This document shows positions 860-60,990 of a stretch of 64,000 bases of DNA, one piece after another (position 1 is the first letter of the stretch; each line of letters begins with the position of its first letter). The stretch covers positions 58,962,001-59,026,000 of the forward strand of contig NC_043001.1 of the NCBI RefSeq assembly GCF_006345805.1. Direction: 5' to 3'. The notes under the pieces are model-generated. The model had not been told where the DNA came from and did no database searches. It worked only from the letters and a program-made list of their open reading frames with translations. The translations under genes were made by a program, and so were the position numbers. The DNA is from Octopus sinensis. Taxonomy: Eukaryota.

Positions 860-918
860 ATTCAAGATCCTGGATTTCTAGCTTTGCTTCAAATAAGCTC
901 TGCCTTCATCAGTTGAAT
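860..918 (-). ncRNA. Minimal type-I hammerhead ribozyme motif
   Basis: Minus strand: AUUCAA-CUGAUGA-AGGCAGAGCUUAUUUGAAGCAAAGCUA-GAA-AUCCAGGAU-C-UUGAAU. Stem I AUUCAA/UUGAAU, full core, stem III AUCC/GGAU, AUC cleavage triplet. The stem II closing pair is imperfect. Confidence 0.7.
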
Positions 919-1118
919 ATATCAGATGGGCACAGAAATACAAATATATATATACAGAACAAGCGTTATACTTACATATACGAACGTCCATACATACATA
1001 TATATGCACGTATGTACAGGCCAGTTCAAATTGCCCGCCAAACACCTCATTAGCACGATATGGTCAAAATAAACACCGCAGTGAATTTAGTGACGAATTA
1101 TATAAATTTATAAATAAG

Positions 1119-1150
1119 GATAATATCGATATTTAAATATCGATATTATC
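1119..1150. repeat. Perfect 32-bp palindrome
   Basis: GATAATATCGATATTT|AAATATCGATATTATC is its own reverse complement. Confidence 0.95.
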
Positions 1151-1274
1151 AAGTGGCCAGCATGGGAAAAATACCATACCAAGGTAATAATTTTTTACAA
1201 CTAAAAATAAGGGTGTCTGAGAGACACCACCATGCCGAAATAGCAGTCAAATCCCTGACTCTAAGAGCCACCTT

Positions 1275-1597
1275 AAAGACCCCCTTTGGTCATGACTGAC
1301 CATGGTATTGCACCCAGAAAGACACTCTCCCAGGTACAAGTCCGAGCAAGGTTGTTTATGGAAGACCAGCAGTCGCCCATGCATACTAGCCTCCCTCTCC
1401 ACGCCACCAATATTATCCAAGGCCGGTACAGCTTGGCACCTGTGACGCCGCAACTCATTTCTACAGCTGAGTGAACTGGAGCAATGTGAAATAAGGGTCT
1501 TGCTCAAGAACAAAACACGCAGCCCGGTCCGGGATTCGAACTCACAACCTCACAATCGTAAGCTTGACGCTCTATCCACTGAGCCATGAGCCTTCAC
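1275..1597 (-). mobile_element. tRNA-derived SINE, near full length
   Basis: Minus strand begins GTGAAGGCTCATGGCTCAGTGGATAGAGCG (A box), then GTTCGAATCC (B box, 1532-1541), then a SINE-core-like TTGAGCAAGACCCTTATTTCACATTGCTCCAG. Confidence 0.88.
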
Positions 1598-2385
1598 ACA
1601 CACACACACATATATGTACATATGGATTAAAGCAGTTTCATTCAAAGTTCTTGGTACTTTAAGTTTCAGAGCGTAGTGCTAAAGCTACACACGTACGTGC
1701 ATAAATACAGATGAACACTATACATACATACGTGCAGGTATTTATGTGCAGATCATGTGCATGCATACAAGCATAAACACTAGTATGCATACACACGTGC
1801 GGATACCCACAAACATATGCGCGTGTGTGTATGTATGCAAAACAGCTTCAAGAGAGGTACGTCCTGTTCATTGTGCAACAATATGAGTCAAGTGAATTCC
1901 ATTAGGAATCATAACAGAAATGTTATGATTTATACAGGAGGTAGGAATGTAGTGATTCCCATGTGTACGCGGCAGAAAGCACGAAACACAACTTGATGTA
2001 TGTTGGTTGAAAAACAGAACTATTATATTAGATTTAATAGGCACAGATATTAAGCCAGATATTAAGCATTAGTTCGACAGATCTTGACGAACATTTCGCT
2101 TCAAACGCTGCAAGTGTGAAAAAGACTTGAAAGTGCATATTCTAAGAAAATATTCTGAATATGCTTCTCTTTCAATACTGAAAATATATCGCGAGAAATA
2201 TGTTTTCGGGTTATTAACACCACACCCTGGAGGAATGAGTAACGTAACAGGAGAATATCATCAAATTTGCACAAAAGTGTTTGATTGAATATCCTTTCTC
2301 ATTTTCCTTTCATCTTTCTTTCCTTTATTTTCTCGTTTTTGTTCTATCTTTTTCTTTTCGCCAGTTATAAAATTGAAACATAAAA

Positions 2386-2455
2386 ACTGATGATGTCATT
2401 CCATCAACGTGTGGACGCTGGTTGCTCTTGTTCATACCTTAGATGTGAATTTCTA
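2386..2455 (+). repeat. 70-bp dispersed repeat, copy 2
   Basis: Inverted match to 404-473. Confidence 0.9.
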
Positions 2456-2589
2456 TAATTTTGAATTTTCGTCGCGATTTATATTGAAATCGACGAAGAC
2501 AGGCTCGCTGTCGAAATATTGTTCAGCCAATAAAATGCCTAGTGCAATCGCATCGCGCTCTTCGTCTTGTCTATTATTATTATTATTTT

Positions 2590-3215
2590 TTTATGATTGA
2601 GTGAGAGAATAGTACATGCCGTCAAAGTAACACTGGGGTACAATATACGAAGCCTAGTATACCCATCATGACTACACGTCTGATAAAGGTACACTAGGCA
2701 CATGCATCCCAACCATATGTACGCGACATGGTGACCTCCTATCAAGATAAACAGCACATGACATTGCAGGTGGGAGCTCAAGGACTGTTTAAGGATGTTG
2801 AACAAACCACCTATGTTTCCAGGGGTGATTTATTCAAACCCCAAAGAAGTCCTCTCAACCCATGGCTGTGACGCTCCCCCACTATTTCTGCTCGTGATCA
2901 GAGAGCACATATCGTCAGCCACTAAGGGGTATGCTCAACTGGTTAGGGTCAAACAACTGACAAGCAAATTTGTGGTATTCAGCCGAATATTTGCTGTAGC
3001 CCATCTTTTATACTAAGAAAAGACAATGTACATGGTTACATTTCCAATCAGTTAAGATCAGAAGCCATGAGAGTCACTGCCTGGTACTGCATCAGGGCAT
3101 AGCCACTGCCTGGTACTGCATCAGAGCATAGCCACTGCTTGGTACTGCATCAGGGCATAGCTGCTGCCTGGTATGCATCAGGGCATTACCACTGCCTTGC
3201 ACAACATCAGGGAAT
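2590..3215 (+). mobile_element. Non-coding interspersed retroposon-like repeat (family A) ending at an (ATT)n tract
   Basis: Homologous copies on the minus strand at 18768-19025 and 51190-51362. Flanked by ATT repeats. Confidence 0.75.
3072..3215 (+). repeat. 29-bp tandem repeat x5 at the 3' end of family A
   Basis: AGCCACTGCCTGGTACTGCATCAGGGCAT-like units start at 3072, 3101, 3130, 3159 and 3187. Confidence 0.92.
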
Positions 3216-58334: not shown

Positions 58335-58530
58335 CTTTGCCACAAAGCCAACAAATTCGGAGTAGGGGATAAGCTGATCACATCGACTCCAATAATGAAC
58401 TGAGACTTGTTTTCTTGACACCGAAAGGATGAATAGCAAAATCGACCACGCAAAATTTCGAAATCAGAACATGAAGACGGACGAAATATCGCTAACCGGC
58501 GTGCTAACGTGTCGGCCACTTCACTGCCTC
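58335..58530 (-). mobile_element. tRNA-derived SINE, diverged
   Basis: GATCACATCGACTCC..CCGAAAGGATGAA..GACGAAATATCGCTAA..CGGCGTGCTAACG on the plus strand. Confidence 0.82.
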
Positions 58531-59224
58531 TTCCCAATAATATTTTGATCTATTAAAAGCTAATGCATATATATATATATATAAAACATATGTGTATTAC
58601 CAGTGTGTGATGACGTAAGCGTGTGAATATCCCATTTGATTAATTGTTACGCCGCGCAGTTGTGTGAATAATATGAACTGTTGATACAGAGTGACAAATG
58701 CCACGCCTTACTGCTAGTAATTGAAAATCACCGGTTTCCTTGAATGACACCAAATTAAATTGCTACTTCCGATGAAATAGAAATTGGAGTCAGTCCTCAT
58801 TCACATATCTCTATGCCATATTTGTTTCAAGACCGATGGTTTCATTGTATTACTAAATGTATAGACACTTCATAAGCACGTCAAGTAGTTAAATAAAATA
58901 TATATACTTTTATTTAAATAATGCAATGAAAGATGCTATGAAGATTGATACAGCCTACAACATTTCATTAATTACATATTGTATCTCAGAAACAGAAGAA
59001 ATTCGTACATAAAAAAAACGGTGAATATATAATAGGCACCAAGTTATTATTTATAGTGTGACCTTCACCTTTAATAATTCTCTCAATATTTATGCGAACA
59101 TGATTTAATTGGATGTCGTAATCATAGAAGAATTTAAGTCCATAGTGCAACATGAATACGTATGTGTGCATGCCTATATATGGGGTTAAGGCGTGTTTGT
59201 ATGTGTGTGTATATATAGTTAGTT

Positions 59225-59358
59225 TTGAATTATGACATTGGGCTATGTGTGTGTCAAGTTTCATCAGAATCGGTTGAAAGCCGTGGTCAGGGTGAGGGTA
59301 CAACCAAACAGACACACAGAAACACACACAGACAAACTGCCGTTTATATAGAAAGAGA
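59225..59358 (-). mobile_element. Helitron 5' terminus
   Basis: Minus strand A|TCTCTTTCTATATAAACGGCAGTTTGTCTGTG..CAACCGATTCTGATGAAACTTGACAC, i.e. a TC start after A. Confidence 0.7.
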
Positions 59359-59902
59359 TATCTATAATAATTATTACGTATACGTTTTTTTTTCATGCTG
59401 AGCACTGGATATGATCGTTATTCTAAATAATGGTCTTAACTTTTTTATATATGTATATATATTCGCTCCGTTTCATCATATTTATTGCGGTGGTATTTTG
59501 ACCATATAGCACAGGGTGTCGGTCGGAAGAACAAATTAGATTTATACGTGCATATATGTCAATGTTCATATGTTATGTATATATATATATATATATATAT
59601 ATATATATATATATATATATATATATATATATATATGTATATGTGTGTGTGTGTGTATGTATGTATGTATGTATGTATGCATGTATGTATGTATGTATTA
59701 TGTACGCATATATTTGTGATTATATACTAGTATTGGTATATATCTACTGTTGGAGGCAAAGTATTATGTTTCTAATCCAGTCATTTTTTGCTAATTTCTT
59801 TGTTCATTTATCTTTTCACCTATGTTATATGAATTTATGATTTAGAGTCAGTTTTGATTGTTTCTGGCATGGTGGTACTTCTTCGGTATCTTTCTTGATA
59901 TA

Positions 59903-59990
59903 ATAATAACAATAATAATAATAATAATAATAATAATAATAATAATAATAATAATAATAATAATAATAATAATAATAATAATAATAATAA
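59903..59990. repeat. (TAA)n microsatellite
   Basis: Directly visible; resumes at 60318-60367. Confidence 0.98.
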
Positions 59991-60318
59991 GACTAAAACA
60001 ATACCTGTTGTCATAGGTGCCCTGGGAATGATAGCAAAAGGGGCTGATTGCTACCTAACACAGATACCAGGAAACCCCAAAATGGCAGAAATTCAACAGA
60101 TAGTGATCATGGGAACTGCTCATATCCTACGCAAAATACTTTCTTTGTAATCTCAAGTTTTAAAACAAATATAATTTTCGTATGGTCTTTTAGGCATTCA
60201 CTAGGCATAACACCCTTGGCATAACACCAACATGAAATTCCAACTTGTTGTCTCTTGAGGTTTCTGGGTGAGACTTGGAGCCAGCTTGTGAAAATGTAAA
60301 GCAAAAGTCAAACATAGA
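59991..60318 (+). mobile_element. 5'-truncated R4/Dong LINE inserted in (TAA)n
   Basis: KTKTIPVVIGALGMIAKGADCYLTQIPGNPKMAEIQQIVIMGTAHILRKILSL* plus 3' UTR, with TAA repeats on both sides. Confidence 0.92.
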
Positions 60319-60544
60319 ATAATAATAATAATAATAATAATAATAATAATAATAATAATAATAATAGGGAGTATAACTCCAAACTTACAGAGAAGAATTC
60401 AATTTAGTATGAAATCAAATTTTACAATACAAATATATAATATATAATATATAATACAAATATATAATAAATGGCGGTGCCCCAGCATGGCCACAGCTCA
60501 TAAGCTGAAACTAGAATCAATCAATCAATCAATATATAATATAT

Positions 60545-60990
60545 ATATTAGAGAAAAAAACACTATTATGCAATTCAAACAATGATAGACATAAACCAAA
60601 TCATAAATAAAAAATCATATATATTTTTATAAAACATATAACTAGATCATACAGTTGCAGCGTGGAATGTGTTTGTAAGCTATTTAAGAAACACACAAAA
60701 GCCGTTCGATTCACTTCAACATTTAAGTTTAATTTGTCAAAATATTTTCGTCGCTAAAATCCGCGACCTCTTCACTAACAAAAATCCGTGCTGCATCATA
60801 AAAAGTACAAAATGAATAAACAATATATAATAAGTAATATATAAGTAATTTACTTATTATATATTTTTTTATTCATTTTCGAACTTTTTGCAATCAAGTT
60901 ATGTTATAAAAAAAAGTTTTTATTTATGATTTGGTTTATGTCTATCATTGTTTGAATTGCATAATAGAGTTTTTTTCTCTAATTTATATA
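60545..60990. mobile_element. Non-coding element with nested inverted repeats and an internal hammerhead-like motif
   Basis: 60545-60650 is inverted at 60893-60990; 60800-60838 is inverted at 60851-60889. Confidence 0.85.
60733..60782 (-). ncRNA. Minimal hammerhead-like motif with C3>G
   Basis: UUUGUUA-GUGAAGA-G-GUCGC-GGAUUUUA-GCGAC-GAA-AAUAUU-U-UGACAAA. 7-bp stem I, 5-bp stem II, palindromic AAUAUU stem III. Confidence 0.62.

What the first reader, a model, noticed from the sequence alone, without database searches (positions are those of the whole stretch)
860..60782. Five hammerhead motifs from about four unrelated families in 64 kb
Seen: CUGANGA-stem II-GAAA cores at 860-918(-), 49413-49452(-), 55810-55855(-), 56690-56723(+) and 60733-60782(-). 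Stem sequences differ but pairing is preserved, most have one extra nucleotide before stem II, and stem III is tiny or palindromic (AUCCaGGAU, ACGU, AAUAUU). PLE RT and GIY-YIG relics lie at 340-620, 7295-7530 and 21400-22320. Established: PLE-associated minimal HHRs have this form and are thought to cleave as dimers. Inference: a diverse population of non-autonomous ribozyme-bearing PLE derivatives (retrozyme-like) in this genome.
Basis: partly seen in the sequence, partly recalled or inferred. Interest (0 to 1): 0.75.

Follow-up and report, generated by a model that had tools for sequence, protein, structure and literature searches.

The report
Penelope retrotransposon ends carrying hammerhead variants
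The five hammerhead-shaped RNA motifs are real, but four are mostly decayed end-stubs of ordinary protein-coding Penelope-type jumping genes and only one belongs to a short non-coding repeat; the notable details are a family whose central catalytic base pair is naturally swapped and one with a tRNA-like start, and self-cutting is predicted, not shown.

Summary
All five motifs are at the stated coordinates and exceed shuffled controls. Each is one copy of a dispersed family of roughly thousands. Four are 5'-truncated ends of protein-coding Penelope-like elements (PLEs): RT and GIY-YIG remains lie upstream on the same strand in longer copies, and one copy has an open frame of about 1,000 codons. 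Only motif 1 belongs to an ORF-less, about 490-nt head-to-tail unit (retrozyme-like), with a two-hammerhead copy and covariation. Three of the five window copies depart from their family's fold. Density is about 1.2 per 64 kb, so this window is merely rich. This matches the minimal PLE hammerheads of PMC4209133. Variants: family 5 has G3-C8 instead of C3-G8 (96 of the first 100 of 5,102 matches); family 3 starts at a tRNA-like segment (25 of 30); a missed sixth motif belongs to a U3-A8 family. This scan already noted the swap, the tRNA-like start and retrozymes elsewhere in this genome. Cleavage and circular RNA are untested.

The parts
725..1277 (-). Family 1 copy: ORF-less unit of about 485 nt plus a 40-nt terminal redundancy, nested antisense in an older PLE relic
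   Evidence: direct repeat with period 485; matches to 24 other loci; nesting
860..918 (-). Family 1 hammerhead: 6-bp stem I, exact core, A.A in place of G10.1-C11.1, two-part stem II, odd palindrome as helix III; predicted cut after 866; equals its subfamily majority
404..473 (-). Inverted fragment of the 3' UTR of PLE family P1, head-to-head with the ORF piece
474..721 (+). P1 PLE relic, RT thumb region, with stops
   Evidence: 83% to P1 loci; translation
1836..2575 (+). P1 PLE relic continued: linker, GIY-YIG region, 3' UTR
   Evidence: 73-76% to P1 loci
2484..2526 (+). Sixth, decayed hammerhead-type motif (P1 family; family majority U3-A8; this copy U3.G8 with C4)
7295..7530 (-). GIY-YIG-type relic of a further, old PLE-like family; no hammerhead found with it
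   Evidence: 28 matches including self; translations; motif reading recalled
49290..49544 (-). Family 2 end-stub of a protein-coding PLE; hammerhead at 49413-49452 near-intact (one C>U in stem I gives U.G); predicted cut after 49416
55750..56127 (-). Family 3 direct arm: truncated tRNA-like segment (56072-56127), AAT/AAC microsatellite, hammerhead at 55810-55855 with G8>A (core pair broken in this copy)
56132..56189 (+). Family 3 inverted 3'-tail fragment joined head-to-head to the direct arm
56466..56673 (-). Family 4 inverted arm
56679..56859 (+). Family 4 direct arm, truncated just before the hammerhead (56690-56723); stem I and helix III decayed
60651..60798 (-). Family 5 end-stub of a young protein-coding PLE; hammerhead at 60733-60782; family majority G3-C8, this copy G3.G8 (pair broken)

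Best explanation
The five motifs are minimal type I hammerheads, predicted to cut slowly as dimers or with protein help, carried in the terminal repeat of five Penelope-like element families; four are truncated end-stubs of protein-coding elements and one is a roughly 490-nt non-coding tandem unit likely copied by a Penelope enzyme. Shown: family membership; RT/GIY-YIG remains upstream in longer copies; inverted-plus-direct insertions; two fixed 3' ends in families 1, 3 and 5; covariation in family 1; G3-C8 in family 5; U3-A8 in family P1. Inferred from PMC11167929: reverse transcription starts at two internal sites downstream of the hammerhead and copies uncut RNA, so most insertions are a 150-500 nt stub holding a whole, uncleaved hammerhead. 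Inferred: the sharp 5' edges mark the 5' ends of the RNAs (a Pol III start at the tRNA-like segment in family 3; a start site or splice acceptor in family 5). Inferred: the fold is kept by selection in active lineages, while single genomic stubs decay neutrally; 3 of the 5 window copies are probably dead.
For: Family 2: L057 and L063 share 1.4 kb upstream, with YVDD, a Cys linker and GIY-YIG ending about 400 nt before the motif. Family 5: L291 has a 1,042-codon stop-to-stop frame ending about 900 nt upstream on the same strand; 14 of 14 long stretches fetched for this family carry the G3-C8 motif. Family 3: L274, L279 and L281 carry RT, thumb and GIY-YIG remains, and the stop codon lies about 30 nt before the tRNA-like segment. 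Family 4: 3 of 25 loci carry remains homologous to the family 5 ORF. Inverted arms, counted by eye: 14 of 24 (family 5), 12 of 19 (family 3), 10 of 24 (family 2), 7 of 24 (family 1). 3' ends: family 5 has 13 of 30 at +122-128 and 12 of 30 at +183; family 3 has 10 of 20 at +96-105 and 8 of 20 at +129-136. Family 1: periods of 458-505 nt, a two-hammerhead copy (L031), no linked ORF; 96% of cells paired, with double changes in stem I (A-U 18, C-G 9) and stem II (U-A 18, A-U 10). PMC4209133 describes the same architecture and says most copies are single and probably related to truncated PLEs.
Against: No cleavage, transcript-end or circular-RNA data: the runs were contigs only and none is on record as RNA. 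No Rfam hammerhead match. Folding z-scores are unremarkable except for motif 5. The family 5 protein has no Pfam or PDB hit, so PLE identity rests on motif order and insertion anatomy, and no clade tree was made. No complete repeat-ORF-repeat tandem was found. The two double changes in family 1 separate subfamilies and may each be a single event; parts of stem II were fixed by the search pattern. No partner enzyme was identified for family 1: the adjacent P1 element has a different end.
Confidence: 0.85

Rival explanations
1. All five are non-autonomous retrozyme-like elements that spread through circular RNAs.
For: Family 1 fits: ORF-less, about 490-nt units, more-than-unit copies, a dimer. 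Most copies of families 3 and 5 are short and start at a fixed point (25 of 30 in family 3; only 4 of 30 extend upstream in family 5, by eye), so short RNAs may be mobilised by themselves.
Against: Families 2-5 continue upstream into RT/GIY-YIG ORFs. No head-to-tail short unit was seen for them.
Confidence: 0.1
2. The motifs are PLE ends, but the hammerhead fold is a non-cutting structure (a protein-binding, translation or promoter element) or a passenger; the variant cores (G3-C8, U3-A8, A.A closure) are tolerated because catalysis no longer matters.
For: In the anole element, ribozyme mutants did not change insertion in vitro and no RNA-seq reads ended at the cut site (PMC11167929, section 3 part 2). 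Minimal PLE hammerheads cut weakly even as dimers (PMC4209133). Families 3 and 5 have U at position 17, which is known to be less favourable (recalled). Genomic copies hold the uncut motif.
Against: Positions 3 and 8 stay Watson-Crick in three combinations across families (C-G, G-C, U-A). This pair forms in the active core (PMC3088659 passage), and the C3G/G8C double mutant partly rescues cutting in a PLE hammerhead (PMC11167929).
Confidence: 0.3
3. Family 3 is a chimeric tRNA-SINE with a PLE tail, independent of any coding element.
For: A-box and B-box-like strings; no TTTT run between head and 3' end in 5 of 8 copies checked; 6 of 6 heads in the random sample sit in family 3 loci; 25 of 30 start at the head.
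Against: In 5 of 30 loci the same segment is preceded directly by the end of a PLE ORF, so the segment is part of the coding element's repeat. ARAGORN found no tRNA in 10 loci nor in 30 heads at the default threshold (1 at 90%), and Rfam found none.
Confidence: 0.15
4. Chance matches in AT-rich DNA.
For: The loosest descriptor gives 1.28 hits per shuffle; folding energies are ordinary.
Against: Each motif recurs in hundreds to thousands of copies at a fixed place in a repeat; the reversed-pattern controls gave 0.
Confidence: 0.01

Closest known systems
Minimal type I hammerheads of metazoan Penelope-like elements (Cervera and de la Pena 2014, PMC4209133; parts 1-2 of 4 read: results, discussion, start of methods)
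   Same: Extra base between 9 and 10.1, G10.1-C11.1 (families 2-5), short stem I, small palindromic helix III, many consensus families per genome, mostly single truncated copies, head-to-head pairs, a U3-A8 core variant.
   Different: G3-C8 as a family majority is not mentioned in the parts read. Family 1 has A.A at the base of stem II. Family 3 has a tRNA-like segment in the repeat. Octopus was not named in the parts read.
Poseidon element PAc of Anolis (PMC11167929; passages and section 3 part 2 read)
   Same: Hammerhead in the terminal repeat, two fixed RT start sites giving an optional tail, AT-rich targets, insertion from uncut RNA.
   Different: There C3G/G8C is an engineered partial rescue; here it is the natural state of a young family. 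The tail is about 57 nt in family 5 versus 30-40 nt.
Metazoan non-LTR retrozymes (PMC7229834, passages; bioRxiv 10.64898/2026.07.22.740005, parts 1-2 of 5)
   Same: Family 1: no ORF, type I hammerhead in a head-to-tail unit, low GC, mostly monomers with occasional dimers.
   Different: The unit of about 490 nt is longer than the 170-400 nt circles of the 2020 paper, though within the 51-972 range of the preprint. The stem II base is non-canonical. No long array was seen and no circle is shown. Families 2-5 do not fit.
Schistosoma Sm-alpha SINE-like retroposons with hammerhead (figure legend passage in PMC6765202; tRNA origin recalled)
   Same: A promoter segment followed by a hammerhead in a short mobile unit, as in short family 3 copies.
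   Different: In family 3 the segment belongs to the repeat of a protein-coding PLE and the hammerhead is minimal.
Small PLE-associated hammerhead variants of Lunse, Weinberg and Breaker (PMC5785218; not held, seen only as a citation in PMC6765202)
   Same: By its title: numerous small variants associated with PLEs that cleave as dimers.
   Different: Unknown. It may already contain G3-C8 or octopus examples.

Membership tests
Minimal PLE hammerhead (PMC4209133) | Core CUGANGA ... GAAA, or a compensated 3:8 pair | tested here: met
   Family majorities C3-G8 (families 1-4), G3-C8 (family 5), U3-A8 (P1). Not met by the window copies of motifs 3 and 5.
Minimal PLE hammerhead (PMC4209133) | Unpaired base between positions 9 and 10.1 | tested here: met
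   All five families
Minimal PLE hammerhead (PMC4209133) | G10.1-C11.1 pair next to GAAA, families 2-5 | tested here: met
Minimal PLE hammerhead (PMC4209133) | G10.1-C11.1 pair next to GAAA, family 1 | tested here: not met
   An extra A before GAAA in 25 of 25 top hits; family 1 is therefore filed as a variant
Minimal PLE hammerhead (PMC4209133) | Short or palindromic helix III | tested here: met
   Palindromic in families 1, 3, 5 and P1; palindromic with wobbles in family 4; 2 bp with an AA loop in family 2
Minimal PLE hammerhead (PMC4209133) | Covariation within or between families | tested here: met
   Family 1: two pairs with double changes, 96% paired, above all slid controls. Between families 2 and 5: stem II A-U versus G-C and the 3:8 swap. 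Few independent events.
Minimal PLE hammerhead (PMC4209133) | Slow self-cleavage as a dimer | not testable with these tools
   Needs an in vitro assay
EN+ Penelope-like element | Single ORF, RT then C-terminal GIY-YIG, upstream of the hammerhead on the same strand (families 2, 3, 5; remains in 4) | tested here: met
   read by motif, no Pfam hit
EN+ Penelope-like element | 5' truncation with an adjacent inverted copy and an optional tail | tested here: met
EN+ Penelope-like element | Full repeat-ORF-repeat tandem | tested here: inconclusive
   None among the 14 family 5 stretches of 10 kb; the longest copy is 5'-truncated
Neptune clade (families 2, 4, 5) | CX2-5CxxC linker between RT and EN (PMC8557442 passage) | tested here: met
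   Present in the family 2 and family 5 proteins
Neptune clade (families 2, 4, 5) | Placement in an RT tree with named clade members | not tested
   No named reference proteins were at hand
Non-LTR retrozyme (family 1) | No ORF; head-to-tail units; at least two consecutive hammerhead units | tested here: met
   Periods 458-505 nt; L031 holds two motifs; no linked ORF in 55 loci, some of them duplicates
Non-LTR retrozyme (family 1) | Canonical type I hammerhead | tested here: not met
   A.A at the base of stem II; no Rfam match
Non-LTR retrozyme (family 1) | Circular RNA of unit length in tissues | not testable with these tools
   Only contigs were available
Non-LTR retrozyme (families 2-5) | No ORF; short tandem units | tested here: not met
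   ORFs upstream; no short period
tRNA-derived SINE (family 3) | tRNA-related head with A and B boxes | tested here: inconclusive
   Box-like strings are visible (box consensus recalled); ARAGORN and Rfam negative at default thresholds
tRNA-derived SINE (family 3) | Non-autonomous, head at the true 5' end | tested here: not met
   5 of 30 loci continue upstream into a PLE ORF end

The most novel reading that the evidence does not exclude
One genome holds recently or formerly active Penelope lineages whose hammerheads use three Watson-Crick versions of the catalytic 3:8 pair (C-G, G-C, U-A). The G3-C8 version sits in a young family with an open ORF of about 1,000 codons and more than 5,000 exact copies, and it still cuts with its own protein's help. 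That would be natural proof that catalysis is under selection in PLEs and that standard motif searches miss whole families. Alongside it, one coding PLE is driven by a captured tRNA-type Pol III promoter.
Probability: 0.35. Interest if true: 0.62.

Novelty: new variant of a known kind. Interest (0 to 1): 0.45.

Why it matters
The finding as posed (many minimal hammerhead families in one animal genome) is the published picture for PLEs. What adds value is a set of sister families that differ at the catalytic 3:8 pair, one of them young and with a near-complete open ORF. This makes an open question directly testable: do PLE hammerheads cut in vivo, or are they passengers? It also means that CUGANGA-based censuses miss the commonest intact form here: the only two strict-descriptor hits in 0.8 Mb that belong to these families were both G3-C8. 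The tRNA-like start in family 3 offers a route from a coding PLE to SINE-like copies. Both details were already noted by this scan in other windows, so this window adds a side-by-side census rather than a first sighting.

Tried and rejected
Rfam: no hammerhead among the 150 best of 284 window matches shown (134 not shown); 0 matches at gathering score in 18 family loci. The repeat finder on the window returned only microsatellites. Folding z-scores of the window motifs: -0.27, -0.06, 0.91, -0.26, -2.29 (its L272 row was folded on the wrong strand and is ignored). One search used a structure string shifted by one column in stem II and is replaced. The family 1 row of the co-fold used a wrong offset, and the co-folds are not used. 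The 5'-boundary script for family 5 failed on copies with a variant letter, so that count is by eye. Idea that family 1 is the terminal repeat of the neighbouring P1 element: rejected; 0 of 29 other P1 loci carry the family 1 unit (one 29-nt hit only) and P1 has its own end. Idea that family 3 is a free SINE: weakened by the ORF-linked copies. Pfam and PDB gave nothing for the family 5 protein. 21400-22320 has no second copy. RNA evidence: no RNA holder listed; contigs of runs guessed to be RNA cover the family 5 and family 1 ends but cannot show ends, strand, level or circles. The random sample could not be enlarged and the neighbourhood of the window was not read; flanks already held were used instead. 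Literature searches for a natural G3-C8 hammerhead, for octopus PLE ribozymes and for tRNA or Pol III segments in PLE repeats listed no report of them, judged from listings and the passages read. The Lunse et al. paper was not held, and no supplements were read; either may bear on the novelty of G3-C8.

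
Full report
Setting. The window lies on contig C5 of a 2.72-Gb, microsatellite-rich animal genome. The best named homologue of one element's protein is from Octopus vulgaris (57% identity), so an octopus is likely.

Observation. All five strings are present. Motifs 1, 2 and 4 have an exact CUGANGA core; motif 3 has A at position 8 and motif 5 has G at position 3. Descriptor scans gave 2 versus a shuffle mean of 0.04, 3 versus 0.12 and 6 versus 1.28 (0 of 25 shuffles reaching the count in each case), and 1 versus 0.08 (2 of 25) for the exact core with short stems. 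These descriptors were written after seeing the motifs, and motif 1 escapes all of them. Rfam lists no hammerhead and folding energies are ordinary except for motif 5, as expected for minimal motifs without a stable helix III.

Each motif is a repeat family. Genome searches returned the capped 40 scored candidates from first-look pools of 1,566, 1,798, 3,033, 332 and 1,405 for families 1-5. Exact patterns gave 5,102 matches for family 5, 1,315 for the family 3 head and 70 for the family 1 core, each with 0 for the reversed control. In 80 evenly placed 10-kb stretches there were 2, 0, 6, 1 and 5 loci of families 1-5. Pooled with the flanks of loci fetched for other families, after dropping 25 duplicate or overlapping loci, this gives about 1.2 loci per 64 kb. 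Five in one window has a Poisson probability near 0.008, which means a few hundred such windows per genome; the families were also chosen from this window. The family 2 estimate may include cross-hits to family 4. The window is rich, not special.

Four families are ends of coding PLEs. Family 2: two loci share 1.4 kb upstream that reads as RT (YVDD), a Cys linker and GIY-YIG, ending about 400 nt before the motif. Family 5: walking upstream led to copies 96-98% alike; L291 has a 1,042-codon stop-to-stop frame ending about 900 nt before the motif. One contig of run X9 joins the two flanks of that insertion (single contig, depth 5), which suggests an empty site and puts about 1,011 codons inside the element. 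The family 2 and 5 proteins are 49% identical over 339 aa and both have the CX2-5CxxC linker that PMC8557442 (passages) ties to Neptune elements; the clade was not tested by a tree, and Pfam and PDB gave no hit. Family 4 is older (about 80% between copies), shares its stem II with family 2, and 3 of 25 loci carry remains of a related ORF. Family 3: longer copies show RT, thumb and GIY-YIG remains without that linker; I read this as Penelope/Poseidon-like from recall. Insertions show PLE anatomy: an inverted arm joined head-to-head to the direct arm (by eye: 14 of 24, 12 of 19, 10 of 24 and 7 of 24 loci for families 5, 3, 2 and 1) and two preferred 3' ends (family 5: 13 of 30 at +122-128 and 12 of 30 at +183; family 3: 10 of 20 at +96-105 and 8 of 20 at +129-136). 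PMC11167929 (section 3 part 2) shows for an anole PLE that two such ends are the two RT start sites, that uncut RNA is the main template, and that the ribozyme cuts only with the protein present.

Family 1 is the retrozyme-like one. Its copies run on past the 3' ends back into their own start, with periods of 460-504 nt in 6 of 25 top hits and 458-489 nt in three more loci; L031 holds two successive hammerheads. No ORF is linked in 55 loci (some duplicates). One locus and the window copy sit inside relics of a PLE family I call P1, but the other 29 P1 loci lack the family 1 unit and P1 has its own 3' end, so these are nested insertions. In 29 of the 30 pattern loci (L335, which has a deletion, was left out; 28 distinct rows), 96% of cells pair, with double changes in stem I (A-U 18, C-G 9) and stem II (U-A 18, A-U 10), above all slid controls. 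The number of co-varying pairs does not exceed the shuffle control, and part of stem II was fixed by the pattern. The family keeps an extra A before GAAA (25 of 25), so G10.1-C11.1 is replaced by A.A.

Variants. Family 5: of the first 100 listed pattern matches (all on C1, some being two arms of one insertion) 96 are G3-C8, 2 G3.G8, 2 C3.C8 and none C3-G8; 4 of 4 copies met in loci fetched for other reasons are G3-C8. The window copy is G3.G8, as are 6 of 25 top hits to it. P1: 20 of 20 scorable copies are U3-A8, and a decayed copy lies in the window at 2484-2526. Family 3 is C3-G8 in 45 of 50. U3-A8 is published as a natural variant (PMC3088659 passages; PMC4209133). G3-C8 appears in what I read only as an engineered variant (PMC11167929; PMC3884650 passage). 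Searches listed no natural case, but the Lunse paper was not held. Family 3: about 30 nt after the ORF stop comes a segment with A-box and B-box-like strings (consensus recalled), then an AAT/AAC tract and the hammerhead. 25 of 30 head-bearing loci begin within 10 nt of that segment's 5' edge and 5 continue into the ORF end (one of the five has a deletion next to the head and scored short); 25 of 30 have the family body downstream and 27 of 30 have it on either arm. ARAGORN and Rfam do not call it a tRNA at default thresholds. Family 5 copies also start sharply, at a pyrimidine-AG/AUG site that could be a splice acceptor or a start site; 4 of 30 extend further (by eye).

State of the window copies. 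Motif 1 equals its subfamily; motif 2 has one wobble in stem I; motif 3 has lost G8; motif 4 has lost stem I and helix III; motif 5 has lost the 3:8 pair. Three of five are probably dead.

340-620 is part of the P1 relic (474-721 and 1836-2575). 7295-7530 belongs to a further old family whose copies read as a Cys linker and GIY-YIG (motif recalled). 21400-22320 is unconfirmed.

Mechanism. Most likely, PLE RNA begins in the terminal repeat upstream of the hammerhead; the element's protein nicks AT-rich DNA and starts reverse transcription at one of two sites downstream of the motif; copying usually ends at or before the RNA's 5' end and is done on both strands, leaving inverted-plus-direct stubs with an intact hammerhead. 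The motif would cut only slowly, as a dimer in tandem transcripts or with the protein, perhaps to trim or circularise RNA; family 1 would be a parasite reduced to the repeat and copied round more than once. Anatomy and sequence are shown; cutting, promoters, circles and the partner of family 1 are inferred.

Comparison and verdict. This is the published picture of minimal PLE hammerheads (PMC4209133, parts 1-2 of 4), plus one retrozyme-like family (PMC7229834 passages; bioRxiv 10.64898/2026.07.22.740005 parts 1-2 of 5). PMC6962438 (passage) already counts 235 Rfam hammerheads in a squid. PMC10886601 (passages) was not relevant. This scan's notes already report the G3-C8 swap, the tRNA-like start and several retrozymes in this genome. 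I saw the swap and the head before those look-ups; the lead to PMC11167929 came from them. Sequence look-ups of the window's own motifs 3 and 5 found no note.

Noticed in passing
window:2484-2526(+): A sixth hammerhead-type motif, end of PLE family P1, whose majority core is U3-A8 with C or U at position 4.
   Followed up: yes
L009 and L018, inside the AAT tract of family 3; related pieces at window 2600-2930: A roughly 600-nt second element flanked by AAT repeats sits inside the family 3 microsatellite in several loci. It is probably the 3' end of an AAT-targeting LINE; ORF pieces at window 19124-19531 and 26714-28647 look like that type (recalled).
   Followed up: no
flanks of fetched loci: At least two further minimal-hammerhead families appear in flanks: one C3-G8 type seen about six times and one U3-A8 type seen twice.
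   Followed up: no
L291:3407-7486: Near-complete family 5 element with an open frame of about 1,011 codons; one contig of run X9 shows the empty site.
   Followed up: partly
L294, L295, L303: Three near-identical family 5 inverted-plus-direct insertions within 400 kb at the start of C9, each beside a long LINE-type ORF; probably a segmental duplication.
   Followed up: no
L130, L131, L176, L292, L049; fragments at window 19715-19893 and 22560-23120: A tandem repeat with a period of about 185-190 nt, widespread in the sampled stretches.
   Followed up: no
window 60520-60610 and 60870-60960: A 95-nt inverted duplication (94%) flanks the family 5 stub on both sides.
   Followed up: no
window:44856-45203 and 46135-46330; 45563-45707 and 44293-44437: Near-identical local duplications (96-97%) about 1.25 kb apart in a microsatellite-rich stretch.
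   Followed up: no
window:21400-22320(-): Single-copy, decayed stretch with a faint by-eye likeness to a PLE linker and endonuclease; unconfirmed.
   Followed up: partly
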